The notes beneath the pieces were generated by a model. The model ran no database searches, was not told where the DNA came from, and saw only the letters and a list, made by a program, of their open reading frames with translations. 25,350 nucleotides of DNA from a virus. Taxonomy: Duplodnaviria; Heunggongvirae; Uroviricota; Caudoviricetes. The position numbers were made by a program, and so were the translations under genes. The stretch lies in IMG/VR virus record IMGVR_UViG_3300026286_000004. One strand, written 5' to 3'. How positions within the stretch are numbered: the stretch's first letter is position 1; each line of letters opens with the position of its first letter. Below, piece after piece: positions 1,987-23,570 of this stretch.

Positions 1987-2007
1987 TTATGTCTACCTCC
2001 CGACGTG

Positions 2008-2649: not shown

Positions 2650-2694
2650 GGATGGATGATATCCGGAAGCCCAGCCCCACACAAGAGGACTCTC

Positions 2695-2703
2695 GAGTGG
2701 AGT
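2695..2703 (+). repeat. IS256 target-site duplication, left copy (gagtggagt)
   Basis: Directly abuts the terminal IR; 8/9 identical to 4146-4154. Confidence 0.8.
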
Positions 2704-4145
2704 GAGGAATAGTCAAGACCTGTGGATCGGCGTGTCATGCGACTTGCTGATCGCCTCCTGATTCGTCGGGTCGTTCGACGAGGACGCCGTTCTCGAACGT
2801 GGCGCCGGCTCGGACTAGCGCGACGAGGTGGGGTGCGTTGACGGCACGCCATCTGGCTTGTGCGGACTCGATGAGCTTGAACGCCATCGCGACGCCGGCC
2901 GCTCTCGAGCCGGGGCCCTTGGTGACTCGCTGCCGCAGTCGGACGGTGGCGAAGGTCGACTCGATCGGGTTGGTGGTCCGCAGGTGGATCCGGTGTTCGG
3001 CGGGGTAGTCGTAGAACTCCAACAGGACGTCGAGGTCGTCGGTGATCTTCGCCGCGGCCTTGGGCCACTTGGGGCCGTAGTCGGCGGCGAACGCCTTCGC
3101 CGCAGCGTGCGCGTGCTCCTTGTCTTCGGCGTTCCAGATCTCAGCCAGCGCGGCCTTCGCACCCGGCTGGGCGGACTTCGGGAGCGCGTTGAGGACGTTG
3201 GCGATCTTGTGGAACCAGCAGCGCTGCTCGCGGGTCTCGGGGAACACCTCACGCACCGCAGCCCAGAACCCCAACGCCCCGTCACCGATGGCGAGCACCG
3301 GTGCTCGCATCCCGCGGCGCTTGCACGAACGGAGCAGGTCAGCCCACGACTCGGTTGATTCGCGGTGTCCGTCGTCGAGGGCACCAGCTCCTTGGTGCCG
3401 TCGGCACGCACCCCGATGATCACCAGCAGGCACACCTTGTCCTGCTCGAGCCGGACCTTGAGGTGGATCCCGTCGACCCAGCAGTAGACGTAGTCGGTGC
3501 CCTTCAACGGCCGCTTGTTGAACGCAACCGCCTCCTCTTGCCACTGCGTGGTGAGCCGGGTGATCGTCGAGGCTGACAGGCCGGCGCCGGAGCCCAGGAA
3601 CTGCTCCAGCGCCGGACCGAAGTCGCCGCTGGACAGCCCGTGCAGATACAGCAGCGGCAACACCTCCGCGACCTTCGGCGACTTCCTCGCCCAGGCCGGC
3701 AGAATCGCCGAAGAGAACCGCTGCCGCTTGCCGGTCACCTCATCGGTGCGCTTGTCGTTGACCCGCGGAGCCCGCACCGGGATCGCGCCCGCAGCCGTCA
3801 TCACCTCCCGCGGTTCGTGATGGCCATTGCGGACCACCAGCCGACGACCGCGCTCGTCGAGCTGGTCGGCGAACGCCTCGATGTACGCGGCGACCTCGGC
3901 CTGTAACGCCGCCGCCAACATCTGCCGGGCACCATCGCGGACGATCTCATCCAGCACCGACCCACCGGCCGGCTCGCCTGCCTCTTCGGCATCGTGGACT
4001 ACCTTGAGCATGGGCGTACCTTCCCGAGCCGGCGCGCCAACGCCGACCCTGATCAGAACCTTGTGATTGCTTCGATCCTGCTCGGGAGGTGCACCTACTT
4101 CACGTCACCTCACCGAGCGCCATCCACAGGTTCTGATCATTGCTC
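2704..4145 (-). mobile_element. IS256-family insertion sequence, 1442 bp
   Basis: Imperfect 24-bp terminal inverted repeats (gaggaatagtcaagacctgtggat at 2704-2727 vs atccacaggttctgatcattgctc at 4122-4145, 19/24) and a 9-bp flanking direct repeat gagtggagt / gagtggact. Confidence 0.9.
2735..4011 (-). pseudogene. IS256/Mutator-family DDE transposase with a 1-bp frameshift near 3382
   Basis: The N-half (RNG, WVDGIHLKVR, GVRADG) is in one frame and the C-half (ESWADLL, GDGALGFW, QRCWFHK, RTTNPIES) in another. GTGCCCTC stands where GTGGCCCTC (V-A-L) would restore the frame. Confidence 0.85.
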
Positions 4146-10286: not shown

Positions 10287-10314
10287 CTTTGCCGCTGACC
10301 CCCGGTTTCGCGGC
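10287..10314 (-). promoter_or_regulatory. Class A motif GCCGCG-N15-GGCAAAG upstream of ssb
   Basis: Exact copy in the dnaE-ssb gap, 74 nt before the likely ATG and 5 nt before an in-frame GTG at 10281. Confidence 0.7.
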
Positions 10315-10321
10315 GCGAGCA

Positions 10322-13300
10322 TCACGCGGCGAGAACGGGGCGGATCATCGCGACCGGGTCGCCGGCATCGTCCGCACCGACCAGGACAAGCGCCGGCCCG
10401 CCGCCGGCGTGCGGGAACGGGTCGGATGACTGGCCGTCATCCAGGATCAGTGCCCAGTCGAACGTCGGGTAGTGCCGGGTGATCTGGTCCAGCACGTTCC
10501 GCAGCTGGGAGAACGCCGGCAACCCTGGAGCGATCTTGACCGTGTACACCGCCGGTCCCGGCTCCGGTTCCGGTTCGGGATCCGCCCAGACATCTTCATC
10601 CGGCATGTCGTTGGGCACGGACTCCCAATATGGGTCCTCTTCGGACGCAGGCGTCGCCTCAACCTCAACTACAGGTTCAGAAGCCTGGCCGGACGCCGGC
10701 GGGTCCGGAACCAGGCTCAGGACCGGCTGCGCCGGCTCGGCCACCACCGGATCGGCGACCTCGGTGACCACCGGGCCGGCAGGCTTCAGTTCCGGGGCGT
10801 CCGGGATAGCCACCTCCCGCGGCAGGCTCCCGAGCGCGCAGATCGGGGTCGGGCGGCGAGGTCCGTCCCGCAGGTCGCCCGTCCAGATGTTCGAGATCCG
10901 CAACTCAGGGGTGACATCGCCCTCGTCGTCGCTGCCCCACGGCGCCGTCGTCACCCCGCTCACACCGATAATCTGACCCACGACCGGCTCGAGCCCGCTG
11001 TCCGTCAGGCGTTCCAGCACGTTGTTCCAGGCGATCCCCTCGATCCGGCCGGTCGCATCCTCGATCACGACCCGGGCATACCGGCCCTTGGTGTAGCTAC
11101 GGATGTTGACCGACACCACCTGTCCGACCACGGACACGCTCACCCCGGACGCCGCGGACACCCGGCCGATCGGTCCGGTCCGGGCGCCCGTGGCCGGGTT
11201 CACCCAGGCGTCCAGCTGGTCGGCCAGCAACGCCGTCGGCGGCGGCCCGAGCACCACCCCGAGCAGGCGGCGCTGACGCTCCGAGCGCTCGATGACACCC
11301 CATTCGGCGTCCGGGATCACGACATCGTCGCTGCCGGACGCGGCGCGGACCGCCATCACCTGACCCATCCGCGGCCCGAATCCGTCCATCGCGCCCGCCT
11401 CGATCAGCGCGATCACCGCAGACGTCGGCAGTTTCGACATCCCTTCGCCGCGCGGCACGTGCACGCGGTTCATCAGGTCGGCCAGGGAGGTGAACGGGCC
11501 GTTCTTGTCCCGCTCCACCACGATCCATTGCGCGTTGCCGGACACGCCCTTGACCTCGCCCAGCCCGAGACGGACCGTGCCGTCCGGGTAGGCCGCGGTC
11601 GACACCGCGCCGACGTTCACGTCCGGTGGGAGGACATCGACCCCTTCGGCGCGCAACGCTGCGATCGTGCCCTGCCGCTTGCCGGCCTTCGACTTGTCAG
11701 TCGGGACCACCGACAGCAGCGCCGCGCCGTACGGCCCCGGCCAGTTCGCCTTCAGCCAGGCGGTCATCCACGCCAGCTGGCCGTACGCCGCCGAGTGGCT
11801 GTTGTGCGAGACCATCCCGTTCGCGACGAAGTTGTGGTCGGTGCCGTCGGCCATCTCGAGGTCGAACGTCGGCATCGACCCGTCCCGTTCGATGCTCTCG
11901 ATCGGCACCAGCCGGGCGAGACCGTCGTCGGTGACGATCAGGTCGCCCACGGACAACTCGGACAGCTCCCGGTACCTCGGGACCGGGTCGCCGTCGACAC
12001 CGAGCCGGTCGGTCGGATCGACGCAAAGCCACCGGTGGTTGCCGGTGCACCGGGCGGTCCGGCCGTTCGCCAGCGTCATCCGGTACACCTCGGCGGTCCC
12101 GTTGTCGTGGACGGTCAGCAGCGCCTGGTTCGTGAAGGTGTTGCTCCGGTGGTCGAACGCGCGCAGCGTCTCCGGCAGGTCCGTGCCCGCCCCGGCCATC
12201 CCGAACAGTTCGGATATCGTCCACGGCGCGCCGTTCCCGTCGACCACCATCGTGTCGCCGGTCAGGCACCGGTTGAACAGGTAGGACGCGGACGCGGTGA
12301 ACGTGCGCCACAACTCATCCAGGGTCGCGGTCCGGAACGACACCTTCGCGCTGCCGTCGGAGCGGACCGACCGCTGGCCGCCGGAGAGGAACGTCTCGTA
12401 GAGGGCGTCCATCTCGGGCTTGATCTTCTTGCTGAACGCCTTCTGCAGCCGGAACTTCTCGTCCTTGCTGAAGTCGGCGACCACCTCCGCCAGCTGCATC
12501 AGCTGTTCCTGGTAGACGCAGTTGTGGACCACGACCCCTTCGGCGACGAAGTTGTGGTCACCGGGAACGGTCAGGTCGTACACACGGGCCGCGCCATCCG
12601 GTTTGACCGACAGGACGTGCCACCACTGGGCGGGGCTGTCTTCGTCGGCGTTCCGCAGCAACCGGACCGGGGAGGCGACCCGGCTCTCGGCTTTGAGGTC
12701 GCCCGCCTGCGTCCACCCCTGGCGGGTCAGCAGCAGGTGGTCGGCGGTGACACGGATGGAGCGGCCGGAGTCGAACGTGACCTTGACGACGCTCTTGATG
12801 CCGTTGTCGTGGACGTGGCTGACGGGGCTGAGCCGGTACTGCCCGTCGTCGCCGACGCTCTGGACCAGGTCCCCGGCCCTGATCTGCTCGATCGGTACAT
12901 ACCCGCCCCAGGTGGAGGAGTAGACCTGCTCGCCTTCCGCGACGCACGTCCCCATCGTGTTCCCGAGCACCGTGGCGATCTCGGCCTGCTCCGCCGGCAC
13001 AGGCGTGAAGATGCCGTAGTCGACCTTGGCGCCGTTCTTGCGGTGCGCGTACTCGTGGTGCATCCCGGCGCCCATCGGGCCCGGCCGGTAGAGCGCCACC
13101 AGCGCGGACAGGTCCGCGAGGCTGGTCGGCTTGACGGCCTTGCACAGCTCGGTCATCCCGGAACTGGAGAGCTGGAAGACGCCGGCGGTCTTGCCGGCGG
13201 CCAGCATCGCGTACGCCCGTGCCGCCCGCTCGTCGGACGGGTCGTGGGTGGCGTTGTCCGGGTCGATCTTCTCGCCGGTCAGCTCCTCGATCATCTCGAC

Positions 13301-15103
13301 GGCACGCTGGACCACGGTCAGGTCGTCGATCGCGAGGAAGTCGAACTTGACCAGGCCGAACTTCTCGATGTCCCGCCCGTCCCATTCGGTGACCGGGGGA
13401 GCCCCGGGAGCCTTGATCTGCTGCCGCATCGGGACCAGGTCGGTCAGCGGCTGGTCGCCGATGACGAACCCGCACGCGTGGATCCCGGACGACGAGGTGA
13501 CGCCCTCGATCGCCTGCGCATCCGCGACGAGCGCGGCGACGGCGGGATCTTCTTGCATCATCGCGCGCAGCGGCGCACCCAACGGCTCGTCCTCGTCGAG
13601 CAGGACGTGGAAGGATGAGTTCGCGGCAGTGCCCATGTTGGGGACCAGCCGGGCGACGGTGTCGGCAAGCTCGTCCCGTCCGGTGACCCGGCCGATGTCG
13701 CGGATCGCCTTCTTCGCCCACGACATGCCGGGGGCACCGATCCGGGCGACGAAGTTCGGCCCGTACTTCTGCGCCGCATATTCGTACATCTCGTCGCGCC
13801 GGTCCGACTGGAAGTCGATGTCGACGTCCGGCATGGACGGACGGTCCGGGTTCAGGAACCGTTCGAACAGCAACCCGTTCCCGAGCGGCTCGACGTTGGT
13901 GACCTCGAGCGCGTACAGGCAGATGGATCCCGGACCGGAACCGCGGCCCGGCCCGACCCGGATGCCGCGCCGGCGGGCTTCGGAGACGATGTCGTGGACG
14001 GCCAGCAGGTAGCCGGCGAACCCGGCGCCGACGATCGTGTCCATCTCGAGGCGGGCCTGGTTCTTGACCTGCTCGGTCAGGACCGGCCCGTACCGGGCGA
14101 TCAGCCCGTCCTTGACCAGCTTGTACAGCCAGCTCTGCTCGGTGTGTCCGTCCGGGACGGGCACATGCGGCAGCCGGAAGCCGACCGCGGGGATGACGTT
14201 CTTCTCGATCCGGGAAGCGATCAGCAGGCTGTTGGAGACGGCGCGTTCCGTGCCCGGCTGGGTGTCGAACAGGGCGTGCATCTCCGCGGCGGTGCGGAGG
14301 TGGTAGCCGGTCCCGTTGAACCGGAATCGCTTCTCGTCCGTCACCAGGGTCGTCTTGCTGCCCTTGGATGACCCGATCGCGAGCCACGCGTCATGGGCGG
14401 GGGCGTCGCATGCGCCTGCGTAGTGGGAGTCGTTCGTGGCAACCAGGGGCAGGTTGAATTCGCGGGCCAGGTCGACCAGGCCCGGTATGACCTTCCGTTC
14501 CGCGGGGATGTCGTGGTCCATCACCTCGACGAACAGGTTCGCTTCGCCGAAGATGTCCCGGAGCCGGGCCAGGTTCGTCCGCGCGGTGTCCATGTCGCCG
14601 CGGATCAGCGGTCCGGCGACCGGCCCGCCGAGGCACCCGGAGCCGACGATCAGGCCGGCGGAGTGCGCGGCGAGCAGGTCGTAGTCCCAGCGCGGCTTGT
14701 AGAAGAAGTTCGCCGCGTCCCAGGACGCATTGTGTCCGGCGATCAGGTTTCGCCATCCGGTCGGGTTCGCGGCCAGCAGCGTCAGATGCTCGTAGCGCTT
14801 CTCCTTGGTTGCGCCGTCACTGTCGCCGCCGCCGTCGAAGTCGTCTTCGGCGGGCACCCGGACCACGTTGCGCTCGGTCCGCGGGCCGATCGACAGGTAC
14901 GCCTCGAGCCCGAGGATCGGGGTCAGGCCGGCCGCGAGAGCGGACTTGTTCACATCGAAGTGGGCGCCGCAATCGCCGTGGTCGGTGATCGTGACCGCTC
15001 GCTGGCCGTCGGCGAGGGCGGCCTCGATCTGCTGGCTGGTACGGGTCAGGCCGTCGAGTTCGGAGCGCTGGCCGTGGACGTGCAGGTTGACGAAGTCGCT
15101 CAC
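10322..15103 (-). CDS. dnaE: DNA polymerase III alpha subunit (DnaE-type family C), precursor 1593 aa with two inteins
   Basis: PHP motifs (LHVH, TDHG, GLEAY, HLTLLA, TNDSHY), GRGSG, catalytic PDVDIDF, GIHACG, KFDFL, YRPGP, YQEQ, FN(R)SH, HhH and OB fold. GGAGG SD and GTGA overlap with the upstream gene. Confidence 0.97.
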   Translation of the reverse strand: MSDFVNLHVHGQRSELDGLTRTSQQIEAALADGQRAVTITDHGDCGAHFDVNKSALAAGLTPILGLEAYLSIGPRTERNVVRVPAEDDFDGGGDSDGATKEKRYEHLTLLAANPTGWRNLIAGHNASWDAANFFYKPRWDYDLLAAHSAGLIVGSGCLGGPVAGPLIRGDMDTARTNLARLRDIFGEANLFVEVMDHDIPAERKVIPGLVDLAREFNLPLVATNDSHYAGACDAPAHDAWLAIGSSKGSKTTLVTDEKRFRFNGTGYHLRTAAEMHALFDTQPGTERAVSNSLLIASRIEKNVIPAVGFRLPHVPVPDGHTEQSWLYKLVKDGLIARYGPVLTEQVKNQARLEMDTIVGAGFAGYLLAVHDIVSEARRRGIRVGPGRGSGPGSICLYALEVTNVEPLGNGLLFERFLNPDRPSMPDVDIDFQSDRRDEMYEYAAQKYGPNFVARIGAPGMSWAKKAIRDIGRVTGRDELADTVARLVPNMGTAANSSFHVLLDEDEPLGAPLRAMMQEDPAVAALVADAQAIEGVTSSSGIHACGFVIGDQPLTDLVPMRQQIKAPGAPPVTEWDGRDIEKFGLVKFDFLAIDDLTVVQRAVEMIEELTGEKIDPDNATHDPSDERAARAYAMLAAGKTAGVFQLSSSGMTELCKAVKPTSLADLSALVALYRPGPMGAGMHHEYAHRKNGAKVDYGIFTPVPAEQAEIATVLGNTMGTCVAEGEQVYSSTWGGYVPIEQIRAGDLVQSVGDDGQYRLSPVSHVHDNGIKSVVKVTFDSGRSIRVTADHLLLTRQGWTQAGDLKAESRVASPVRLLRNADEDSPAQWWHVLSVKPDGAARVYDLTVPGDHNFVAEGVVVHNCVYQEQLMQLAEVVADFSKDEKFRLQKAFSKKIKPEMDALYETFLSGGQRSVRSDGSAKVSFRTATLDELWRTFTASASYLFNRCLTGDTMVVDGNGAPWTISELFGMAGAGTDLPETLRAFDHRSNTFTNQALLTVHDNGTAEVYRMTLANGRTARCTGNHRWLCVDPTDRLGVDGDPVPRYRELSELSVGDLIVTDDGLARLVPIESIERDGSMPTFDLEMADGTDHNFVANGMVSHNSHSAAYGQLAWMTAWLKANWPGPYGAALLSVVPTDKSKAGKRQGTIAALRAEGVDVLPPDVNVGAVSTAAYPDGTVRLGLGEVKGVSGNAQWIVVERDKNGPFTSLADLMNRVHVPRGEGMSKLPTSAVIALIEAGAMDGFGPRMGQVMAVRAASGSDDVVIPDAEWGVIERSERQRRLLGVVLGPPPTALLADQLDAWVNPATGARTGPIGRVSAASGVSVSVVGQVVSVNIRSYTKGRYARVVIEDATGRIEGIAWNNVLERLTDSGLEPVVGQIIGVSGVTTAPWGSDDEGDVTPELRISNIWTGDLRDGPRRPTPICALGSLPREVAIPDAPELKPAGPVVTEVADPVVAEPAQPVLSLVPDPPASGQASEPVVEVEATPASEEDPYWESVPNDMPDEDVWADPEPEPEPGPAVYTVKIAPGLPAFSQLRNVLDQITRHYPTFDWALILDDGQSSDPFPHAGGGPALVLVGADDAGDPVAMIRPVLAA
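11801..12268 (-). other. Mini-intein 2 in DnaE (156 aa, no homing endonuclease)
   Basis: LFNR|CLTGDTMV...CTGNHRWL...TFDLEMADGTDHNFVANGMVSHN|SHSAAY: Cys1, TxxH, terminal HN, +1 Ser. Confidence 0.93.
12521..12946 (-). other. Mini-intein 1 in DnaE (142 aa, no homing endonuclease)
   Basis: MGT|CVAEGEQV...VTADHLLLT...VYDLTVPGDHNFVAEGVVVHN|CVYQEQ: Cys1, block B TxxH, blocks F and G, +1 Cys. Confidence 0.93.
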
Positions 15104-15663
15104 GCGACACCTCCGGTGAGAACGTCGAGGATGTCGGCGAAGCTCGGGCCGCGGTGGATCCGGTATGCCGCGACCCACGCTTCGGTGGTGCCGATGTAGA
15201 AGTCGGGTGTCCCGGCACGCCGGACCAATGCGATCCGCCGGTTCCGGGGGATTCCGCCCCGGTCGTTGCGGACGTGCTCGACGGCCTTCGACGGGATACC
15301 GAAGACGGGCCGGGCGTCATCCGGGACCGGAGCCGGCCAGGTGGTTGCGGCCATCAGCCAGTTGACGCTGGTCGCCTTGGCGTTCATCACCGGCACCATG
15401 CCCAGGTGCAGTGCGACGCCGGCGTTCGCCTGCTGCCGGAAGGCGCCGTCAACGGCCTGCCACAGGGCCCGGTTGGTGTCGTTGAGCGCCTTGACCTGGA
15501 CGGCGACGTCGGGGAAGACGTGAAGGTCGCCCTTGTCCTCCTTGCGTCCGGCGCCGAGGAGGCGTTCGGGCCGGTCGACGGTCAGGCCGGGGCACCACGC
15601 AGCCAGGTGGGCGACGGCTTTGCGCTCGAACCGGTCGCCCTTGTTTTTGGGTGCGTTCGCCAT
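15100..15663 (-). CDS. Hjc-like Holliday junction resolvase, PD-(D/E)XK nuclease (187 aa)
   Basis: KNKGDRFERK...GAGRKEDKGDL...VQVK is the KG..xE / GD / QxK pattern of archaeal- and actinophage-type resolvases. Translationally coupled to dnaE. Confidence 0.75.
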   Translation of the reverse strand: MANAPKNKGDRFERKAVAHLAAWCPGLTVDRPERLLGAGRKEDKGDLHVFPDVAVQVKALNDTNRALWQAVDGAFRQQANAGVALHLGMVPVMNAKATSVNWLMAATTWPAPVPDDARPVFGIPSKAVEHVRNDRGGIPRNRRIALVRRAGTPDFYIGTTEAWVAAYRIHRGPSFADILDVLTGGVA

Positions 15664-15670: not shown

Positions 15671-15698
15671 CTTTGCCGGCGGGGGCCGGACTCGCGGC
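15671..15698 (-). promoter_or_regulatory. Class A motif GCCGCG-N15-GGCAAAG, 7 nt before the resolvase ATG
   Basis: Exact copy heading the resolvase-dnaE unit. Confidence 0.75.
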
Positions 15699-16386: not shown

Positions 16387-16414
16387 GCCGCGTCGGCGAC
16401 CTCTTCCGGCAAAG
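16387..16414 (+). promoter_or_regulatory. Class A motif GCCGCG-N15-GGCAAAG, 8 nt before the GTG at 16423
   Basis: Exact copy heading the rightward gene run. Confidence 0.75.
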
Positions 16415-16422: not shown

Positions 16423-18183
16423 GTGCAGACCTTCATCGCAGTCGTCAACTTGCCCGGGCTGGTCCCCGCCCTCCGGTCAGCCGGCTACCAGCTGGCGAGC
16501 GAGGACACCCAGCCCCGGGCGGTCAACGCATCCCTGCGTTCCGCCCCCACCGACGCCAAGGTCGTCGTCATCGCGGCTCACCCGAACGGCGACGCGAAGA
16601 TGCGCGACTGGATCGCGGTGCAATCCGAGTCGCGCCGCCCGGTTCTGCTGCTGGCCGCCGACCCCGATGCACAGCCGCTCCCGAAGACCCGGGTGGTCCA
16701 CCTGCCGGCGACCTTCGACGACATCATGGCGAGCTTCAACGCTCCGGCCCGCGGCGACGATGTCGGGTCCTCGGTCCTCGAGCCGGACGGCACCCTGACC
16801 TCCCCGGGATCCGAGCCCATCACGGATGACGGCGACATCTGGGGTGACGACTTCGGGTTCTCCGCCGATCCCAGCCCGGACGCGGACGACGATGCCGACC
16901 CACCAGCCCCTGATGACGACGACCTCGACTCGTCCGACGACCCACCGGTCCCGGGCGACGACGACGACGAAGAAGAAGACCTCGACGACCTCGACCCGTC
17001 GGTCCCCGATGACGACGACCTCGATCCGTCCGACGATCCGCAGGTCCCTGATGACGATCTCGACTATCTCGACGATCTCGACCCGCCGGTCCCCGATGAC
17101 GACGACGACGATCCCGGTTACCGCCCGCCGCCGGTCCCGAGCTTCGGGATGGACGACACCCCGCCCCCTGCTCCGGCCGAGGCTGTCGCCCCGGAGCGGC
17201 CCGGTGGGTTGATCGACCCCGACGAGACCGAGGAGATCCTCGGCGTCTTCGACCGCAGACCCGACACCATGCTGGTCCGGTCCGCGACCCTCGGCGGTCA
17301 GTCCGACATCATCGTCTGCTGGGCAGCGAAGGGTGGCGTCGGGAAGACCTCGTTCGCGATCGCTCTCGCCGAACGGGCAGCCGTTATCGGCGGCTTCAAG
17401 CGGATCGTGCTGGTCGATGCGAACCGCGGTCAGGACGGAGTCCGCAAGGTGCTGCGCCTGACCGGTGCGGTCGACCGGCTGCCGTCGATGTACAGCGCGG
17501 CGATCACCGGCGACCCGGAGCAGGCCATCTCCACCCCGGCCCAGATCGTCCAGCTCCGGCATCAGAACCTGCCGCCGGTGCACTTCGCGACCGCTCTTGC
17601 CCCGCGAGCCGGCCAGGCCGACCCGGAGGTCGTCTCCGATCAGGTGTACGGCGCGGTGATCGACTGGGCCCGCCGCAACGCCGACCTGGTCATCGTCGAC
17701 ACACAGATCAAGGAATCGCATGACACGTCCGGGCTGTTCGACCGGCTTCTCGAGCCGATCCTGACGGCTGCGGCCGGGTCGTTCTCGGTGGCGATGGCGG
17801 ACACCTCCGTCGAAGGCGTGCTGAACCTCATCGAACGGCTGAAGGCGTTCGGTGCCGGCGACATCCCGCCCGAGCGGACCCTCGCGGTGATCAACCGGGT
17901 CGAGGCGAATTCACCGCTCGACATCCCGGCGACCGTGCGCTACCTCGAGGGCAAGATGCACTTCGTTGGATCGGTCATGCAATCCCCGGATGTCCTGAAC
18001 GCCTTCTCGACCGGGCGTATCCCGCACGACGACCCGGCCCTGGCCCGCGTCTTGGACGACATCCTCTTCAAGGTGACCGGGGCCTCCCAGTTCGACTCCG
18101 ACCGTCACTGCGACCGGTATGCCGACCCATCGTCCCTGGCGAAGGGCCGATCGCGGTGGTCCCGGTTTGGAAGGAGGGGCTGA
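16423..18183 (+). CDS. MinD/ParA-family ATPase with N-terminal receiver-like domain and acidic repeat linker (CpaE/TadZ-like architecture, 586 aa)
   Basis: Deviant Walker A AKGGVGKT, LVDAN, Walker B LVIVDT and VINRV. Asp/Pro-rich repeats at about aa 140-250. Confidence 0.8.
   Translation: MQTFIAVVNLPGLVPALRSAGYQLASEDTQPRAVNASLRSAPTDAKVVVIAAHPNGDAKMRDWIAVQSESRRPVLLLAADPDAQPLPKTRVVHLPATFDDIMASFNAPARGDDVGSSVLEPDGTLTSPGSEPITDDGDIWGDDFGFSADPSPDADDDADPPAPDDDDLDSSDDPPVPGDDDDEEEDLDDLDPSVPDDDDLDPSDDPQVPDDDLDYLDDLDPPVPDDDDDDPGYRPPPVPSFGMDDTPPPAPAEAVAPERPGGLIDPDETEEILGVFDRRPDTMLVRSATLGGQSDIIVCWAAKGGVGKTSFAIALAERAAVIGGFKRIVLVDANRGQDGVRKVLRLTGAVDRLPSMYSAAITGDPEQAISTPAQIVQLRHQNLPPVHFATALAPRAGQADPEVVSDQVYGAVIDWARRNADLVIVDTQIKESHDTSGLFDRLLEPILTAAAGSFSVAMADTSVEGVLNLIERLKAFGAGDIPPERTLAVINRVEANSPLDIPATVRYLEGKMHFVGSVMQSPDVLNAFSTGRIPHDDPALARVLDDILFKVTGASQFDSDRHCDRYADPSSLAKGRSRWSRFGRRG
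16884..17115 (+). repeat. Imperfect coding tandem repeats encoding PDDDDLD.SDDP.VP / LDDLDP.V
   Basis: e.g. cctgatgacgacgacctcgactcgtccgacgacccaccggtcccg vs cccgatgacgacgacctcgatccgtccgacgatccgcaggtccct. Confidence 0.8.
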
Positions 18184-18851
18184 TGGGTTTCGACGACTGG
18201 CCTCCGAAGCCCGCGCCGGAACGCGTCGACGGGTCCGACCCTTCGGACGTGATCTTCGGTGGTCATCACGGCAGTTCCGTGGTCACTCCGGAACGACCCG
18301 ACGACGAGCCGGACCTCACCGACGACGACGACGAGCCGGATCTGTTCATGGCACCGGGACCGAAGCCGGCGGAGCCGAGCCTCTCGGACGACCTCTTCGG
18401 GCCGGCGCCCGCGCCGGCGGCACCGGCCAGGCCGGGTCCGACCGTGGACGCGGTGTCCACGTCCCGCGCGCGCACTCCGCGCCTGCCGAGGGCCCGCCGG
18501 TCAATGCCGAAGCTGTCGAAGCCGTCCCTGGGCGCTGCCGGCGCCGGGCTTTCTTCGGCCGGAATGCAGGACGTGGTGCGGATCGTTGCTGCCGTCGCGG
18601 TCGCCGGCCTGGTGTGGCTGGTGGTCGACCGGGCCGCGGACGTCACCGGTGTCGGCCAGTTCATCGTCACGGCGACGGCGGCTGCCGTCACGATGGCGGT
18701 CATGTACGCGCGCGGCCCGAAGCTGGGGCTGGCGGTGGCCGCCGTGTGCGCCGTGGTTGCCGTGGTGTCCGCGCATTGGTGGTGGGCCGCGGCAGCGGTC
18801 CTGATGGTGCTGGGAGGAATCCTCACAGCGGGGTGGAGGAAGGATCCATGA
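18183..18851 (+). CDS. Membrane protein with Pro/acidic N-terminus and 3-4 C-terminal TM helices (222 aa)
   Basis: GGAGG SD, TGATG overlap with the ATPase gene, and hydrophobic stretches in the C-terminal 100 aa. Confidence 0.75.
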   Translation: MGFDDWPPKPAPERVDGSDPSDVIFGGHHGSSVVTPERPDDEPDLTDDDDEPDLFMAPGPKPAEPSLSDDLFGPAPAPAAPARPGPTVDAVSTSRARTPRLPRARRSMPKLSKPSLGAAGAGLSSAGMQDVVRIVAAVAVAGLVWLVVDRAADVTGVGQFIVTATAAAVTMAVMYARGPKLGLAVAAVCAVVAVVSAHWWWAAAAVLMVLGGILTAGWRKDP

Positions 18852-19804
18852 CGCTGATGTCGCCTCGTGACCGGCTGCGGACCTGGTGTTCGCTGCTGGA
18901 CCGGATCGTTGTCGGGCGGGCCGCCGCGGCTGCTCTCGACGAGGGCCGTGATCTCGAGCCCGGGTTGCTGTTCATCCTCCCGACGTGGCTTTGGGTCGAG
19001 CCCGGTATCGACGTCGGACGCAAGGGTGTCGCCGACGACGGCTCCTTGCTGCCGATGCCGATCCGGGTCAGCTCGCCCGGATCGCCCGTCCAGGTGCTCT
19101 CCGACCCGTCCGACCTGGCGTTCACCGCGGCCGGCCTGGGCATCTCCACGGCCGGTGTCGTCACCGTGCGTGCCGGTTACTCCGACGCCTGCCATCCGGC
19201 GCATGTCGCCGACCAGGACATCTTCTCCGTCCGGATGCGCACCCCCGCCGAGCTGCGGGTCGAGCTGCGCAGGCTGGACGTCGACGGGCACAACGCTTGG
19301 TGCGAGGCGCTGATGTGGCCCGAGGAGCAGGTGCGCACCGCCATCGAGAAGGCGCACACGTTCCTCGCGCATGACGTCGCGAAAATGCACGGCGGCACCC
19401 CGACCCGGCTGATCGACCGGACCGCGGTCGAGGAAATCCTGACGTCGATGACGATCGGTTCCCTTGACGCGACCAAGCCGTCTGCGCTGGCGCGCATCAT
19501 CGAGCGGTCGCTGCTGCCGCTGACGTTCCTGAAGGTCGATCCGCTGTACTACCTGGAGCAGTCCCTGCGCCGCGATGCGCATGTGGCGTTGCGTCAGCAC
19601 ATGGGTGACCCGGAGTCCGGCCCCCGGATCCGCAAGTCTGCTCTCGAGGCCGGCGGCGTCGATGCCGACCCGGACGAGATCCTCGCGTGGCACAACAGGA
19701 AGTACCCCTTGGACAACCTCGGGATGGGCCGGCTCATGGCTGCACTGTCGGTGGCCCCCACGGTCACCGCCCGGGCAACAGGGCTGCAGTCGTGGGCGTC
19801 GTAG
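18848..19804 (+). CDS. Hypothetical protein; C-terminal helical region weakly sigma-factor region 2-3-like (318 aa)
   Basis: ATGA overlap and GGAGG SD. FLKVDPLYYLEQSLRRDAHVALRQHMGDPESGPRIRK...DPDEIL. The CDS is solid; the function is speculative. Confidence 0.65.
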   Translation: MTLMSPRDRLRTWCSLLDRIVVGRAAAAALDEGRDLEPGLLFILPTWLWVEPGIDVGRKGVADDGSLLPMPIRVSSPGSPVQVLSDPSDLAFTAAGLGISTAGVVTVRAGYSDACHPAHVADQDIFSVRMRTPAELRVELRRLDVDGHNAWCEALMWPEEQVRTAIEKAHTFLAHDVAKMHGGTPTRLIDRTAVEEILTSMTIGSLDATKPSALARIIERSLLPLTFLKVDPLYYLEQSLRRDAHVALRQHMGDPESGPRIRKSALEAGGVDADPDEILAWHNRKYPLDNLGMGRLMAALSVAPTVTARATGLQSWAS

Positions 19805-20223
19805 CACCGAGCGTCGGTGCACATACGTCGGCCGCCGGGGTCGCCGGACGGCTGAGCAAGGACGCTGTCAGAGCACGGTGTTTGACTGCTGTGACACAGG
19901 GAAGGTCGTCGATCTTCGATGTGATTCTGGAGGCCGCGGACACGAATGAGCGCCGGGCCCCGTTGCGGTTGATCAGGTTGTGGATGTTGTTGGAAGCGCA
20001 GGCCGGCTGGGGTGAGGCCCGCACCGGTGTCGTCATGGACCGGCTGGCCCGGTTCGCGGGTGTGCCGAACGATGTCCCGGTCCGGTCGTTGACGATCGGG
20101 TGGCTGCTGGACAACCGGTCCAAGCACCGGTTGGTCGCGTTCGCGGATGCTCTCGGCGACCGGGCCGTGCCGTGGCCGGGGTTCCCGTACGCGCCGGTAC
20201 CGGATGGTGTGTCGTGGACCTGA
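19792..20223 (+). CDS. Actinobacterial IHF (mIHF/sIHF)-like nucleoid-associated protein (about 143 aa; start uncertain)
   Basis: VTQGRSSIFDVILEAA...LRLIRLWMLLEAQAGWGEARTGVVMDRL follows the mIHF H2TH pattern (G..l.dVl..a...l.k+.v..LLEA.p..G..+a..+M..l), judged by eye. Confidence 0.55.
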   Translation: MGVVAPSVGAHTSAAGVAGRLSKDAVRARCLTAVTQGRSSIFDVILEAADTNERRAPLRLIRLWMLLEAQAGWGEARTGVVMDRLARFAGVPNDVPVRSLTIGWLLDNRSKHRLVAFADALGDRAVPWPGFPYAPVPDGVSWT

Positions 20224-21032
20224 CCTGGGAGGGTGTGGAGTCGTTTATCGGAGGCCGGACGGTCCGTTCCGACGCTCCCGTCCTGAACGACTTCCTGCGG
20301 CAGCAACCGGTGCGCCGGCTGGTCGATGTCACGGTGCGGACGCTGTGCAAGCGCAACGGGATCAGTTTCGCCCGGTACGGCGACGACTTCACCGCCGAGG
20401 TGAACGCGATCATCTTCTTGATCCTGACGAACGAGCAGTGGTCGGACCGGGCACACCTGCTCTCGGATTTCCCGCGTGGGTTGTTCCAGCTGTCGCGGAA
20501 CAAGTTCGCCTCGATCACGGAGTCCGCGGCGTGGATCGGGTCGTCCGGGATGTCCACGCAGGTGCGCCGGCGCCGGGCGCTCGGGATGCACCGGGCCCGG
20601 ATGATCAAGGACTTGGAGCGGGAACCGTCGAACCGTGAGCTGATCGACTCCTACAACGAGGCGATCCGGGCGAGCCGCAAGGACGCCGCCCGGCAGGGCA
20701 TGATCGCCACCGAAGGCGACCTGGCCCCGCTGGAGCCGGCATCTTTGGACGTGTCGGCCGGCCGGGAGGCGGCCAGCGACGACGTCTACCCGTTGCTCAC
20801 CCCGCAGGCGGGGCCGCTGGCCGAGGAGATCATCCGCCGGTCCGCCATGGAGGACCCGCTGCTCGGCATCGTGGCCCGGGCGTGGCTGGGCACCTATCAG
20901 GACGAGGTGTTCGCGACGTCCGCGGCGATCGCGGCAGAGCTGGGGATCGACCTCGACGACGTCATCGAGGCGCAGCGCGCGATCCAGGCGGTCACCGTCC
21001 TGGTGCTTCGGGACTGGGGCATGCCGGAGTAG
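20214..21032 (+). CDS. Divergent sigma-70-like (FliA/WhiG-like) protein (about 272 aa)
   Basis: SAAWIGSS...RRRRAL...IKDLEREPSNRELID resembles sigma regions 2.4-3.0 (DW.PRS...L..ELGR.PT..E). C-terminal HTH TSAAIAAELGIDLDDV resembles region 4. The CDS is solid; the sigma call is moderate. Confidence 0.55.
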   Translation: MDLTWEGVESFIGGRTVRSDAPVLNDFLRQQPVRRLVDVTVRTLCKRNGISFARYGDDFTAEVNAIIFLILTNEQWSDRAHLLSDFPRGLFQLSRNKFASITESAAWIGSSGMSTQVRRRRALGMHRARMIKDLEREPSNRELIDSYNEAIRASRKDAARQGMIATEGDLAPLEPASLDVSAGREAASDDVYPLLTPQAGPLAEEIIRRSAMEDPLLGIVARAWLGTYQDEVFATSAAIAAELGIDLDDVIEAQRAIQAVTVLVLRDWGMPE

Positions 21033-21039: not shown

Positions 21040-21067
21040 GCCGCGAAACCGGGGTCGGGCGGCAAAG
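21040..21067 (+). promoter_or_regulatory. Class A motif GCCGCG-N15-GGCAAAG, 7 nt before the ATG at 21075
   Basis: Exact copy in the 42-bp intergenic gap; its spacer (aaaccggggtcgggc) resembles that of the ssb copy (aaaccgggggtcagc). Confidence 0.75.
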
Positions 21068-21074: not shown

Positions 21075-23570
21075 ATGGCCCCGACTGACGAAACTCTGCG
21101 CGCTGGACTTGTCCTGCACCCGCAGTCGCTGGCTGTCTCCGACCCTCGCTTGATCTCCAAGCTGGACCGGGCGGCGTGGTCGCCGTCGTCGTCGTCGTCC
21201 TTCCTGGGGTGCCCTGGACGGTGGGCGACCTCGCGCCTGCTGCCGTCGGTCCCGGACCCGTTCGGGGCGGCGGAGACCGGCTCGGCTGGGCACCTGGCGC
21301 TAGAGATCCTGTTCGCCCTGCCTGCTCAGGAGCGCACCTTGGACCGGGCGGCGCAGATCATCGAGACGCTGCACGACCCGCAGGCGCATGGCCGTGCCCG
21401 CGGCGAGATCGACGCGCCGGCGACGCCGGCGGACTTGCTGCGGTGGCGGGCGGCCGTCATCGACAAGATCTCCGGGCTGTGGCGTATCGAAGACCCGCGC
21501 TCGGTCCATGTGCTCGGCCTGGAGCGGTCCCTGTCCGGTGCGGACATCGACGGTGTCCCGTTCGTCGGGTTCATGGACCGGACGTCGGCGATCACGAACA
21601 CGGCCGGCGAGGTGATCGGCTCCCGCGTCGAGGACTATAAGGGGCTGGACCGGAACACCCCGCTGCCGACGCCGACCGGCTGGACGACGATGGGGGCCGT
21701 CCAGGTGGGCGACCAGCTGTTCGGTTCGGACGGCAAGCCGTGCACGGTCACCGCGAAGTCGGGCATTCACGACCGCCCGTGCTACCGGGTCAGTTTCGAC
21801 GACGGCACGCACCTGATCGCCGACAACGTCCACTTGTGGGAGGTGCACCGCGACAGCGGTGTGCAGGTGCTGTCCACGCAGGACATGATCCCGCTGCTGC
21901 GTGCCGGCCGGGGCGGGCAGCGCGACCTGCGCATCCCGAACACGCGTGCCCTTGACCTGCCGGACGCCGACCTGCCGTTGGACCCGTACGTGCTCGGGGT
22001 GTGGCTCGGTGACGGCAAGGCCAGCTCCGGCGAGGTGTCCAGGCCGGACCAGGACCTGTTCGACGAATGCGCCCGCCGCGGTTTCCCCAGCGGCCCGGGC
22101 GAGATGACGCGCACCCTTTACGGTCTGCGGACCCGGCTGCGCGAGATGGGGTTGCTCAACAACAAGCACATCCCTGCGGCCTATCTGCGGGCCTCGCGTG
22201 CGCAGCGGCTGGACCTGCTGCGCGGCCTGATGGACACCGACGGCTCGTTCACCGTCGCACGCAAGCAGGCGGTCTTCGTCGGCACGGACAAGCAGCTGTG
22301 CCAGGACGTCTTCGAACTTGCCGCGTCTCTGGGCTGGCGCCCGTACATCTGCGAGACCGTGCGGTCCGGGTTCGGCGTTACGACCACCTGCTGGGATGTG
22401 AAGTTCACGCCGTTCGACGATGTCCCGTTCCTGCTGCCGCGCAAGGCGAACCTGGTCGTGGTGCCCGAGTCCGCCCGGTCTCGCCGTCGCCTGATCACGG
22501 CGATCACGCCGGTACCGTCGGTGCCGACCCAGTGCATCCAGGTGGACTCGGCGAACAGCTTGTACCTGGCCGGCCATCAGATGGTCCCGACGCACAACAC
22601 CGGGAAGCCGTCCCCGCCGTACAAGCGGGCCAAGTACGGCGACGAGAAGGCCGACCAGATGGTCGCGTACGGCCTGGCTGTTGAGTCTCTCGACGGCCGC
22701 CGTCCGGACGAGCTGGTTCTGCTGTTCACGGCGGAGCAGCACGCGGAGTCCTACAGCCCGGTGATGACGCCCAAGACTGTCGGCGGGGTGCGCCAGCGGT
22801 TCACGACCTCGTGGACGGGCATGAAGGCGGCGGCGGCTTCCGGCAGCTACGAGCTGAAGCCGTCCCCGTTGTGCGGCTGGTGCCCGTTGGCGACGGTTTG
22901 CCCGGCGGCGGATTCGGCGGGCAAGTCGGAGGCGAAGATCCCGGACGCCCGCACCGGTGAGCGGATCGGGATTCCGCTGGCCGGTCTGACCGTCGCCGTA
23001 CCGGAGCTGTTCGGGGTTCCGGACGTTCCGGCCGTCCCGGTGCGTACCGACCCGGTGCTACCGGCGTCATCTGAGTCGACATCAACCGAAGGAGTCACCA
23101 TGTCCAACCTGTTCGCTGCTGCCGAAGTGCAGCCGTGGATCGAAACCGACCCGGCGACGGGCCTGCTGAACCCGGCGGCGTATGCCGCGACGGCAGCGTT
23201 CTCGCTCGTGTCGATGGCTACCGAGGCGCTTTTCGACGCGGGCGTCCCGGTCACAAAGGATGCGGTTCCCGCGTTGGCGACCGTGTTCGCAGACGTGATC
23301 GCGTCCGCCCAGTCCGAGGTGTTCGGACGGACCTCGATGCAGGAGAACAGCCACACCCGGCTGCGTGGCGTCCTGCACACGGCGATCAAGACGATCCCGA
23401 TCCCGTTCGGTCAGCCGGAGGAGCAGTGGGTCGCGTGGAAGGCCCGCGTGGTCAAGCGCTTGATCTCCACGGCCCGCGCTGCCGGCGAGCTGTACGTCGC
23501 CGGCCCGCAGGACGGCGCCTGGGGCCCGTTGACCACTCTGACCCCGGCCAAGCCGTCCGTAGCGGCCTGA
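21075..23570 (+). CDS. Cas4/AddB/RecB-like PD-(D/E)XK nuclease with 4-Cys Fe-S signature, interrupted by an intein and carrying a C-terminal extra domain (precursor 831 aa)
   Basis: SPSSSSSFLGCPGRW, GSAGHLALE, GFMDR, DYK|TG (after intein removal), QMVAYG, CGWCPLATVC. Confidence 0.88.
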   Translation: MAPTDETLRAGLVLHPQSLAVSDPRLISKLDRAAWSPSSSSSFLGCPGRWATSRLLPSVPDPFGAAETGSAGHLALEILFALPAQERTLDRAAQIIETLHDPQAHGRARGEIDAPATPADLLRWRAAVIDKISGLWRIEDPRSVHVLGLERSLSGADIDGVPFVGFMDRTSAITNTAGEVIGSRVEDYKGLDRNTPLPTPTGWTTMGAVQVGDQLFGSDGKPCTVTAKSGIHDRPCYRVSFDDGTHLIADNVHLWEVHRDSGVQVLSTQDMIPLLRAGRGGQRDLRIPNTRALDLPDADLPLDPYVLGVWLGDGKASSGEVSRPDQDLFDECARRGFPSGPGEMTRTLYGLRTRLREMGLLNNKHIPAAYLRASRAQRLDLLRGLMDTDGSFTVARKQAVFVGTDKQLCQDVFELAASLGWRPYICETVRSGFGVTTTCWDVKFTPFDDVPFLLPRKANLVVVPESARSRRRLITAITPVPSVPTQCIQVDSANSLYLAGHQMVPTHNTGKPSPPYKRAKYGDEKADQMVAYGLAVESLDGRRPDELVLLFTAEQHAESYSPVMTPKTVGGVRQRFTTSWTGMKAAAASGSYELKPSPLCGWCPLATVCPAADSAGKSEAKIPDARTGERIGIPLAGLTVAVPELFGVPDVPAVPVRTDPVLPASSESTSTEGVTMSNLFAAAEVQPWIETDPATGLLNPAAYAATAAFSLVSMATEALFDAGVPVTKDAVPALATVFADVIASAQSEVFGRTSMQENSHTRLRGVLHTAIKTIPIPFGQPEEQWVAWKARVVKRLISTARAAGELYVAGPQDGAWGPLTTLTPAKPSVAA
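21642..22598 (+). mobile_element. Class 3 intein with LAGLIDADG homing endonuclease (319 aa)
   Basis: DYK|GLDRNTPLPTPTGWTTMG...ADNVHLW...LGVWLGDG...LRGLMDTDG...TQCIQVD...VPTHN|TG: W/C/T triad, no N-terminal Cys or Ser, two LAGLIDADG blocks. Confidence 0.9.

What the first reader, a model, noticed from the sequence alone, without database searches (positions are those of the whole stretch)
20214..21032. Highly divergent FliA/WhiG-like sigma candidate
The ordered cues fit a group-3 sigma-70 layout: W-containing 2.4-like segment (ITESAAWIGSS), basic helix (VRRRRAL), region 3-like LEREPSNREL, acidic linker, and a terminal HTH (TSAAIAAELGIDLDDV). Canonical region 2.1-2.2 core-binding motifs are not clearly recognisable, so it may be a remote family that standard HMMs miss. 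It is the best candidate reader of the class A or B motifs.
Basis: inference. Interest (0 to 1): 0.7.

Follow-up and report, generated by a model that had tools for sequence, protein, structure and literature searches.

The report
Cryptic sigma factor of actinobacterial megaplasmids
The gene encodes a real but very diverged, unannotated relative of bacterial sigma factors that is a single-copy backbone gene of large plasmid-like elements of high-GC Gram-positive bacteria, and it probably lets the element run its own promoters on the host RNA polymerase.

Summary
Observation confirmed; the sigma reading is supported. Window 20214-21032 (+) is a real 272-aa gene. Curated HMMs miss it: Sigma70_r3 scores 16.4 bits against a 25.3-bit cut-off, FliA_WhiG 11.9 against 189.6.

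A full HMMER scan found about 185 related clusters. A profile of 87 members aligns colinearly with canonical sigma factors from region 2.1 to 4.2 (hhalign 97.1%, E 5.4e-11). The AlphaFold model (pLDDT 91.8) returns almost only sigma factors in two independent structure searches, with separate sigma-2 and sigma-4 matches.

It is not a FliA/WhiG member. It is a separate branch with a group-3-like layout.

The gene closes a cassette conserved in five other elements: ParA-like ATPase, a weakly sigma-2-like protein without sigma-4, an mIHF/sIHF-like protein, then this sigma. Hosts include Micrococcales megaplasmids, Cellulosimicrobium and Aeromicrobium.

The cassette is headed by a bipartite promoter-like box. 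The same box class precedes replication and maintenance genes here and on a Pseudarthrobacter plasmid. A second, more abundant -10-only box class also exists.

Which class this sigma reads, and RNA polymerase binding itself, remain untested.

This scan reached the same reading on other DNA (e1-5440063, e1-5326259, e1-5430847). I found no paper describing the family.

The parts
20214..21032 (+). Gene for the divergent sigma-70-family protein (272 aa)
   Evidence: ORF. Start supported by GC3. Family of about 185 clusters. hhalign against canonical sigmas 97.1%, E 5.4e-11. AF2 pLDDT 91.8. Sigma-only hit lists.
20214..20543 (+). Sigma-2 domain (aa 1-110), including the region 2.2 equivalent YGDDFTAEV (aa 55-63, nt 20376-20402)
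   Evidence: VIA-align: SigI6 8i24_F Z 8.0 (96 aligned), SigK 4nqw Z 7.5 rmsd 2.7, sigmaE region 2 2mao Z 7.0. Profile alignment to FliA residues 18-133. D57/D58 conserved.
20547..20723 (+). Region 2.4/3.0-3.1 segment (aa 112-170). This is the most conserved part of the family: G112, R118, R119, LGREP-like 134-138, E142, N148, R155, Q161, G162, D169
   Evidence: Conservation counts. Pfam Sigma70_r3 hits at the equivalent position in members P0030, P0035 and P0045. Aligned to canonical ...LGRxPTPEE....
20724..20807 (+). Acidic, disordered linker (aa 171-198), the equivalent of region 3.2
   Evidence: pLDDT below 50 at 182-194. It lies between the sigma-3-like and sigma-4 matches.
20808..21023 (+). 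Sigma-4 domain with the terminal helix-turn-helix (aa 199-270)
   Evidence: SigR region 4 5fgm_A Z 8.5, rmsd 2.0, 65 of 65 residues. sigmaE region 4 on -35 DNA 2h27 Z 8.0. Aligned to canonical region 4.1-4.2.
16387..16414 (+). Class A bipartite box GCCGCG-N15-GGCAAAG, 8 nt before the first gene of the cassette that ends in the sigma gene
   Evidence: Four exact copies in the window against 0 expected. Positions relative to start codons.
16423..18183 (+). ParA-like ATPase, first gene of the cassette
   Evidence: Pfam CbiA/ParA-type hits. Orthologues in L001-L005.
18156..18851 (+). Predicted membrane protein, not conserved in the related cassettes
   Evidence: Coding-type GC3 of 0.84. No tblastn hit in L001-L005.
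18854..19804 (+). Conserved 316-aa protein with a weak structural resemblance to sigma domain 2(+3), a beta insertion and no sigma-4
   Evidence: Orthologues in all five loci. AF2 pLDDT 72.8. VIA top hit Mtb SigA domain 2 4x8k_A Z 8.4, 119 of 122 residues. No sequence-profile signal.
19792..20223 (+). mIHF/sIHF-like DNA-binding protein
   Evidence: Profile of six orthologues hits sIHF 4itq E 4.9e-6 and mIHF 6tob E 4.4e-5.
21040..21067 (+). Second class A box, 8 nt after the sigma stop codon, heading the nuclease gene
21075..23570 (+). PD-(D/E)XK nuclease interrupted by an intein. It is the downstream neighbour in the conserved neighbourhood
   Evidence: Pfam PDDEXK_1 and LAGLIDADG_3. Orthologues in L001, L002 and L005.

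Best explanation
The gene encodes an alternative sigma factor of the sigma-70 family that belongs to the mobile element, not to the host.

Shown: it is homologous to sigma factors over regions 2.1 to 4.2. It folds into sigma-2, a reduced sigma-3, a disordered acidic linker and sigma-4. It is a single-copy backbone gene at the end of a conserved ParA / sigma-2-like / IHF-like / sigma cassette.

Inferred: it binds the host core RNA polymerase through the region 2.2 helix (DDFTAEV) and sigma-4, and directs the polymerase to the element's own promoters.

My preferred target is the bipartite class A box, GCCGCG-N16-GCAAAG(G/A), which ends 6-8 nt before the start codon. If transcription starts at the start codon, this puts the two boxes near -35 and -10 and yields leaderless mRNAs. 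Class A heads the sigma's own cassette, which would make it positively autoregulated. It also heads the SSB/DnaE, nuclease and other replication and maintenance genes.

The more abundant -10-only class (TG-CCGCAyAyA) would then be read by another element factor. Alternatively this sigma is the switch to that class.
For: Homology:
- hhalign of the family profile against canonical sigmas gives 97.1%, E 5.4e-11, 232 colinear columns.
- A profile search of PDB sequences gives FliA first (E 5.4e-4, colinear in two blocks), then SigB, ECF SigE and SigA.
- Sub-threshold Sigma70_r3, r4, r4_2 and r2 hits occur in 16, 3, 2 and 1 of 87 members, at the correct positions.

Fold:
- AF2 pLDDT 91.8.
- All 50 top Foldseek rows are sigma factors, probability up to 1.0.
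- A VIA-align search independent of Foldseek gives S. aureus SigB Z 9.6 (224 aligned) and SigR region 4 Z 8.5 at 2.0 A. Sigma-2 domains score Z 7-8. The top 25 rows are all sigma factors.
- ESM Atlas neighbours are sigma-70 clusters.

Genuine gene:
- 185 clusters.
- One copy per element.
- Conserved cassette in five loci.

Promoter link:
- Class A occurs four times against 0 expected, 7-8 nt before start codons, including the cassette's first gene.
- On plasmid NZ_CP061722.1 the analogous CGTC-N12-GCATAGA box (19 copies, reversed control 0) precedes dnaE, SSB, helicases, a methyltransferase, the nuclease and the ParA-sigma cassette. This is the same gene set as class A here.
- There it works with or without a leader, as a promoter would.

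Precedent: plasmid sigma SigN with a plasmid-wide, autoregulated regulon (PMC6751061), and Tn916 Sig7-8 (bioRxiv 10.64898/2026.10.01.756105).
Against: - No experiment or complex prediction shows binding to core RNA polymerase.
- All curated sigma HMMs are below threshold.
- The aromatic region 2.3 residues of canonical sigmas (YATWW) have no conserved counterpart.
- The third sigma-3 helix is replaced by a family-specific loop.
- The sigma-to-promoter assignment is open. The cassette has a second sigma-2-like protein. Related plasmids carry two more Pfam-detectable sigma genes. The Cellulosimicrobium element has weak further candidates.
- Box spacing differs between elements: 16 nt here and 11-12 nt on the Pseudarthrobacter plasmid.
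- The class A downstream box contains a Shine-Dalgarno-like AAAGG, and the two boxes are partly complementary (GCCGC...GCGGC). It could therefore be a ribosome-binding or operator element instead of a -10 box.
Confidence: 0.62

Rival explanations
1. It is a functional sigma factor, but it reads the abundant -10-only class (TG-CCGCAyAyA, class B here) and not class A. It would be the early-to-late switch: made from a class A promoter, it turns on the bulk (transfer and other) genes.
For: - The best conserved part of the family is region 2.4/3.0 (G112, R118, R119). This is the part that reads -10 and extended -10 elements in known sigmas (established knowledge).
- The bulk box is strongly conserved between elements and carries an upstream TG. 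CGCACAT occurs 126 times on the Cellulosimicrobium contig, 80 of them start-proximal, with the start exactly 9 nt away in 68. CCGCACAC occurs about 180 times on NZ_CP061722.1. CCGCATACA occurs here.
- The putative DNA-reading face of the sigma-4 recognition helix shows no conserved polar residues.
- The Cellulosimicrobium genome has no Pfam-detectable extra sigma with region 3.
Against: - A -10-only promoter fits the sigma-4-less neighbour at least as well.
- This protein keeps a complete, well-folded sigma-4.
- Class A has canonical -35/-10 geometry and needs a reader with sigma-4.
Confidence: 0.22
2. It has the sigma fold but does not act as an initiation factor. It would be a DNA-binding regulator or a partner of the ParA-like ATPase (a centromere- or operator-binding protein of the maintenance module) that uses its sigma-4-type helix-turn-helix.
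For: - It always sits in an operon that starts with a ParA-like ATPase.
- KorA and KorB helix-turn-helix domains also appear among the structural matches to the C-terminal domain (Z 6.2-6.3).
- NCBI annotators call orthologues only 'HTH domain-containing protein'.
- Class A boxes are partly dyad-symmetric.
Against: - Homology covers the whole length, including the core-binding region 2.2 and the 3.2-type linker. A plain DNA-binding protein would have no reason to keep these.
- Sigma factors fill the structural hit lists for both domains, in the right order.
Confidence: 0.12
3. It is a sigma mimic that titrates a host or element partner (an anti-sigma-type or PhyR-type decoy) and does not recruit polymerase.
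For: PhyR's sigma-like domain appears among the weaker structural matches (3t0y, Z 6.0). Region 2.3 lacks the usual aromatic residues.
Against: - There is no receiver or other partner-switch domain.
- No anti-sigma-like neighbour is conserved. The only membrane protein in the operon is not conserved.
- The element has dense private promoter-like boxes that need a reader.
Confidence: 0.04

Closest known systems
Group 3 sigma-70-family factors (FliA/sigma-28, SigB/SigF type; PDB 9wsm, 1rp3, 8x6g)
   Same: About 270 aa with no region 1.1. The order is sigma-2, region 3.0/3.1 with an LGREP-type motif, acidic linker, sigma-4 helix-turn-helix. These are the best sequence-profile hit (FliA) and the best structural hit (S. 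aureus SigB, Z 9.6).
   Different: It fails every curated model (FliA_WhiG 11.9 bits against 189.6). It has no conserved aromatic cluster in region 2.3. The third sigma-3 helix is replaced by a conserved R-x-D-P-x-R-Q-G-x-L-A-T-x-x-D-L loop. It is encoded on a mobile element in a ParA cassette, not in a flagellar, sporulation or stress operon.
SigN (ZpdN) of Bacillus subtilis plasmid pBS32 (PMC6751061)
   Same: [quoted passage not shown] Its plasmid-wide regulon includes DNA polymerase III, exonuclease and nucleotide-metabolism genes. This is the same logic as proposed here.
   Different: SigN is described as weakly ECF-like and is LexA-controlled in a Firmicute. This protein has a region 3 and an actinobacterial host. 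Its promoter boxes are GC-rich and directly abut start codons. Sequence relatedness to SigN was not tested.
Tn916 Sig7-8 split sigma factor (bioRxiv 10.64898/2026.10.01.756105)
   Same: A conjugative element encodes its own autoactivating sigma activity, which drives element genes. A two-gene arrangement of sigma-like parts recalls the sigma-2-like neighbour plus this sigma.
   Different: Here the protein is a complete single-chain sigma with both sigma-2 and sigma-4. Whether the neighbour cooperates with it is unknown.
Phage sigma cascades (T4 gp55 with -10-only late promoters; SPO1 gp28, gp33/34). Own knowledge.
   Same: An invading element redirects host RNA polymerase with its own diverged sigma factors. 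It uses distinct promoter classes, one of them -10-only.
   Different: No homologue was found in 50,697 phage records or in IMG/VR. The carrier is a plasmid or integrative element with partition and conjugation-type genes.

Membership tests
Sigma-70 family (RNA polymerase sigma factors) | Detectable homology across conserved regions 2 and 4 in the canonical order | tested here: met
   hhalign of the 87-member profile against five canonical sigmas: 97.1%, E 5.4e-11, columns 24-276 against 90-325. FliA is colinear in the PDB profile search.
Sigma-70 family (RNA polymerase sigma factors) | Sigma-2 domain fold | tested here: met
   Model aa 1-110 against SigI6 (Z 8.0), SigK (Z 7.5, 2.7 A), sigmaE region 2 (Z 7.0) and SigC sigma-2 (Z 5.9).
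Sigma-70 family (RNA polymerase sigma factors) | Region 2.2 acidic core-binding motif (D/E-D-L-x-Q-E type) | tested here: met
   DDFTAEV aligns to FliA VEDLMQAG. Positions 57 and 58 are D/E in 75 and 85 of 87 members.
Sigma-70 family (RNA polymerase sigma factors) | Conserved aromatic and basic residues of region 2.3/2.4 used for -10 melting and recognition | tested here: inconclusive
   No conserved aromatic cluster lies opposite canonical YATWW. W107 is not conserved. ECF sigmas also lack this cluster, so its absence does not exclude membership.
Sigma-70 family (RNA polymerase sigma factors) | Sigma-4 domain with the region 4.2 helix-turn-helix | tested here: met
   SigR region 4 5fgm Z 8.5, rmsd 2.0, 65 of 65 residues. 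sigmaE region 4 on DNA Z 8.0. Aligned to canonical 4.1-4.2.
Sigma-70 family (RNA polymerase sigma factors) | Score above the curated cut-offs of the Pfam and NCBIfam sigma models | tested here: not met
   Sigma70_r3 16.4 bits against 25.3, and in this protein the hit is misplaced on the C-terminal HTH. No NCBIfam sigma model passes. This is why it is unannotated.
Sigma-70 family (RNA polymerase sigma factors) | Binds core RNA polymerase and confers promoter-specific initiation | not testable with these tools
   No complex prediction or experiment was available.
FliA/WhiG subfamily (TIGR02479) | Match to the subfamily model above its cut-off | tested here: not met
   E 0.14, 11.9 bits against a cut-off of 189.6, and only over aa 234-268.
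FliA/WhiG subfamily (TIGR02479) | Flagellar, motility or sporulation regulon and a TAAA-N15-GCCGATAA-type promoter (own knowledge) | tested here: not met
   Neighbours are ParA-like, IHF-like, nuclease, SSB and DnaE genes. The local boxes are GCCGCG-N16-GCAAAG and CCGCATACA.
ECF (group 4) sigma factors | Only sigma-2 and sigma-4 joined by a short linker, with no region 3 | tested here: not met
   A conserved 60-residue region 3.0/3.1-like segment with an LGREP-type motif lies between sigma-2 and the linker.
Retron-type reverse transcriptases | Palm domain with a conserved YxDD motif C, preceded by motifs A and B | tested here: not met
   The weak hits (E 0.02-0.1) rest on ISFARYGDDFT. Y and G are not conserved in the family. 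No upstream palm motifs exist. The segment is sigma region 2.1-2.2.

The most novel reading that the evidence does not exclude
This sigma, the sigma-4-less sigma-2-like neighbour and the IHF-like protein form a self-contained transcription-initiation module. It would be conserved across a large family of actinobacterial megaplasmids and integrative elements. The module would split host RNA polymerase between two private, largely leaderless promoter classes: a bipartite replication and maintenance class, and a -10-only bulk class. That would be a phage-style sigma programme run by plasmids.
Probability: 0.35. Interest if true: 0.75.

Novelty: new variant of a known kind. Interest (0 to 1): 0.6.

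Why it matters
Sigma factors carried by plasmids and conjugative elements are known from only a few Firmicute cases (SigN, Sig7-8). Here a deep, unannotated branch of the sigma-70 family (about 185 clusters at 50% identity) is a single-copy backbone gene of large actinobacterial elements. It travels with dense, element-specific promoter-like boxes whose target genes are conserved between distant elements.

If it works as proposed, three things follow:
- These elements insulate their gene expression from the host and can time replication against transfer.
- Dozens of start-adjacent boxes and leaderless genes on such plasmids are explained.
- Annotation pipelines gain a missing sigma family.

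Cultured carriers exist, for example Pseudarthrobacter sp. BIM B-2242 and P. chlorophenolicus A6, so the idea is directly testable.

Tried and rejected
- **Retron reverse-transcriptase reading.** The weak NCBIfam and PDB hits on YGDD were rejected. The motif is not conserved, and the segment aligns to sigma region 2.1-2.2.
- **Word-indexed protein search.** It found only the protein's own 90% cluster. The same was true for the upstream 316-aa protein.
- **Phage origin.** There was no protein match in 50,697 phage records or in IMG/VR. The DNA matches to phages are confined to the intein of the nuclease.
- **Near-identical plasmids.** None found.
- **The search for related loci with alignments A2 and A3.** It failed for lack of a conserved 7-10-column stretch.
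- **Single-protein scans.** These gave three genome loci and only a near-identical 3.3-kb metagenome contig. Footprinting of class A among 40-90% relatives was therefore not possible.
- **The 316-aa neighbour against sigma profiles.** Nothing by sequence. Only the fold hints at sigma-2.
- **Assigning a promoter class by elimination.** This failed because related elements carry further sigma-like genes.
Full report
**The object.** Window 20214-21032 (+) is an open frame of 272 codons. It starts at a GTG that overlaps the stop codon of the upstream gene by 10 nt. Third-position GC is 0.93 inside the frame and 0.53 in the possible 5' extension 20100-20213, so 20214 is the start. Public gene calls give the same 272-aa product. 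It has 13 variants at 90% identity or more, on contigs up to 161 kb.

**What curated libraries say.**
- Pfam gives only Sigma70_r3 at E 0.0099 (16.4 bits, cut-off 25.3), placed on the C-terminal helix-turn-helix.
- PHROGs gives nothing useful.
- NCBIfam gives FliA_WhiG at E 0.14, plus two retron reverse-transcriptase models at E 0.02 around ISFARYGDDFT.
- PDB sequences give a retron RT at E 0.11.

None of this would lead to an annotation. Orthologues in RefSeq plasmids are called 'hypothetical' or 'HTH domain-containing protein'.

**The family.** A full HMMER scan of 1.84 billion representatives found 185 clusters at E 0.001 or better, nearly all 270-300 aa. I aligned 87 of them with the query (A2).
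- Scanned one by one, 16 of the 87 touch Sigma70_r3, 3 touch r4, 2 touch r4_2 and 1 touches r2. All are below threshold.
- In members P0030, P0035 and P0045 the r3 hit lies at residues 132-172, the expected place.
- The A2 profile against PDB sequences puts FliA first among real proteins (E 5.4e-4). It aligns in two colinear blocks: regions 2.1-3.1 and region 4.2. SigB, ECF SigE, SigA and RpoS follow.
- For a profile-profile test I built a small canonical sigma alignment (A7). It contains two host SigA, one SigB-like protein and two plasmid group-3-like sigmas.
- hhalign of A2 against A7 gives 97.1% probability, E 5.4e-11, 232 aligned columns, from region 2.1 to region 4.2 without rearrangement.

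The YGDD string is not conserved in the family. It falls in regions 2.1-2.2, so the retron hits are spurious.

**The fold.** AlphaFold2 with A2 gives pLDDT 91.8, with a disordered stretch at 182-194.
- Foldseek against the PDB returns only sigma factors in its first 50 rows. The E-values are weak (0.003 upward) because the free model is compact and the solved sigmas are extended on polymerase, but probabilities reach 1.0.
- VIA-align against 48,161 representative chains does not depend on Foldseek. Its first 25 rows are all sigma factors.
  - Whole chain: S. aureus SigB, Z 9.6 over 224 residues.
  - Sigma-4 (model 194-270): SigR region 4, Z 8.5 at 2.0 A over 65 of 65 residues.
  - Sigma-2 (model 1-110): SigI6, SigK, sigmaE and SigC, Z 6-8.
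- ESM Atlas neighbours are actinobacterial hypothetical proteins, then sigma-70 clusters.

**Anatomy.**

| Residues | Assignment |
|---|---|
| 24-49 | Region 2.1 |
| 55-76 | Region 2.2; DDFTAEV aligns opposite the FliA VEDLMQAG (D/E at positions 57 and 58 in 75 and 85 of 87 members) |
| 86-111 | Regions 2.3/2.4 |
| 112-170 | Region 3.0/3.1 |
| 171-198 | Acidic linker (region 3.2 equivalent) |
| 199-270 | Sigma-4 |

- Region 3.0/3.1 is the most conserved block: G112, R118, R119, the LGREP-type motif, E142, N148, R155, Q161, G162 and D169.
- Two things differ from textbook sigmas. There is no conserved aromatic cluster in region 2.3. The third sigma-3 helix is replaced by a conserved loop, R-x-D-P-x-R-Q-G-x-L-A-T-x-x-D-L.
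- The layout is group-3-like, but the protein is not a FliA/WhiG member.

**Context.** The window belongs to a large high-GC mobile element. It carries:
- an intein-bearing DnaE;
- an M23 peptidase of 1032 aa;
- a Mutator-family transposase and an integrase fragment;
- a ParA-like ATPase;
- an intein-bearing PD-(D/E)XK nuclease.

tblastn finds orthologues at 26-30% identity on eight Micrococcales plasmids of 375-608 kb. The same gene order occurs on two of these plasmids and in three genome loci: Cellulosimicrobium, Aeromicrobium and a metagenome bin. That order is ParA-like, a protein of 316-360 aa, a protein of about 140 aa, then this sigma. The family profile finds exactly one copy per element and no host sigma.

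The neighbours:
- The 140-aa protein is mIHF/sIHF-like (profile against 4itq E 4.9e-6, 6tob E 4.4e-5).
- The 316-aa protein has no sequence signal.
- Its moderate-quality model (pLDDT 72.8) has Mtb SigA domain 2 as top structural match (Z 8.4, 119 of 122 residues). SigA sigma-2/3 from other species follow. It has a beta insertion and no sigma-4. I treat this as a lead only.

**Promoter-like boxes.** GCCGCG-N15-GGCAAAG occurs four times exactly (0 expected), each 7-8 nt before a start codon. The four genes are the first gene of the cassette, the nuclease directly after the sigma gene, SSB, and the gene starting at 10281. A one-mismatch copy lies before the gene at about 5355. If transcription begins at the start codon, the boxes sit near -35 and -10 with a 16-nt spacer.

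A second box, TG-CCGCATACA, lies 6 nt before two GTG starts.

On Pseudarthrobacter plasmid NZ_CP061722.1:
- CGTC-N12-GCATAGA occurs 19 times, with a reversed control of 0. On the Arthrobacter plasmid it occurs 15 times against 0.
- It precedes dnaE, SSB, two helicases, a methyltransferase, the nuclease, the gene after sigma and the ParA-sigma cassette. Some are leaderless and some have leaders of 70-100 nt.
- Promoters behave like this, and the target set matches class A here.
- The same plasmid has about 180 copies of CCGCACAC, 70 of them start-proximal.

The 215-kb Cellulosimicrobium contig has 126 copies of CGCACAT. Eighty precede long ORFs, and in 68 the start codon lies exactly 9 nt away. 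There is an upstream TG and no -35 conservation.

So two box classes are conserved across the element family: a bipartite replication and maintenance class, and a -10-only bulk class.

**Mechanism.** Shown: sigma-70-family homology, fold, family size, single-copy backbone status, the conserved cassette, and the box classes with their targets. Inferred: core binding, and which class this sigma reads.

The alternative is that this sigma is the switch to the bulk class. Its most conserved segment is region 2.4/3.0, and the bulk box has an extended -10-like TG.

Caveats:
- The class A downstream box contains AAAGG at Shine-Dalgarno distance.
- The two class A boxes are partly complementary.
- Related plasmids carry two further Pfam-detectable sigma genes.
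- The Cellulosimicrobium element has weak extra candidates.

**Novelty.** Two literature searches found no description of this family. The closest functional precedents are SigN of pBS32 and Sig7-8 of Tn916.

Earlier reports of this scan on other genomes reached the same reading of the same cassette (e1-5440063, e1-5326259, e1-5430847). I used them as leads and re-derived the evidence here.

It is a new, unannotated branch of a known family in a known kind of role, with an unusual genomic setting.

Noticed in passing
window 18854-19804 (+): This conserved 316-aa protein has no sequence similarity to anything. Its AF2 model (pLDDT 72.8) best matches Mtb SigA domain 2 (Z 8.4, 119 of 122 residues). 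It has a beta insertion at aa 37-105 and no sigma-4, so it may be a second, sigma-4-less sigma-like factor.
   Followed up: partly
window 19792-20223 (+): A profile of six orthologues matches Streptomyces sIHF (4itq, E 4.9e-6) and mycobacterial mIHF (6tob, E 4.4e-5). There is an extra conserved C-terminal tail (GWLLD...WPGFPY).
   Followed up: yes
window 18156-18851 (+): A predicted multi-pass membrane protein with coding-type GC3 lies inside the cassette. It has no counterpart in the five related cassettes.
   Followed up: partly
window 16387-16414, 21040-21067, 15671-15698 (-), 10287-10314 (-): The two class A boxes are partly complementary (GCCGC...GCGGC or CGGC). The downstream box ends in AAAGG at Shine-Dalgarno distance. 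An operator or ribosome-binding reading is therefore not excluded.
   Followed up: partly
G001 contig 9 (loci L013-L023), 215 kb, Cellulosimicrobium: CGCACAT occurs 126 times. Eighty copies precede long ORFs, and in 68 the start codon lies exactly 9 nt downstream. TG sits 2-3 nt upstream, and there is no -35 conservation.
   Followed up: partly
NZ_CP061722.1 (loci L026-L046): Two box classes coexist. One has about 180 CCGCACAC/CCGTACAC sites (bulk). The other has 29 GCATAGA sites, most with CCGTCR 11 nt upstream. The second class precedes dnaE, SSB, helicases, a methyltransferase, the nuclease and the ParA-sigma cassette.
   Followed up: partly
L006-L009 (NZ_CP099467.1 and NZ_CP061722.1): Each of the two Micrococcaceae megaplasmids carries two further sigma genes that Pfam Sigma70_r3 does detect. 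One is group-3-like (269-291 aa) and one is longer (383-435 aa). One of them lies about 105 nt downstream of a GCATAGA box.
   Followed up: partly
window 10322-15178 (-) and 21075-23570 (+): Both the DnaE-type polymerase and the PD-(D/E)XK nuclease are interrupted by inteins. The only DNA similarity to phages in this region is within the nuclease intein.
   Followed up: no
window 2-628 (-), 2815-4011 (-): An integrase N-terminal SAM-like fragment lies at the window edge, and a Mutator-family transposase lies in a lower-GC patch (0.555 at 2001-3000).
   Followed up: no
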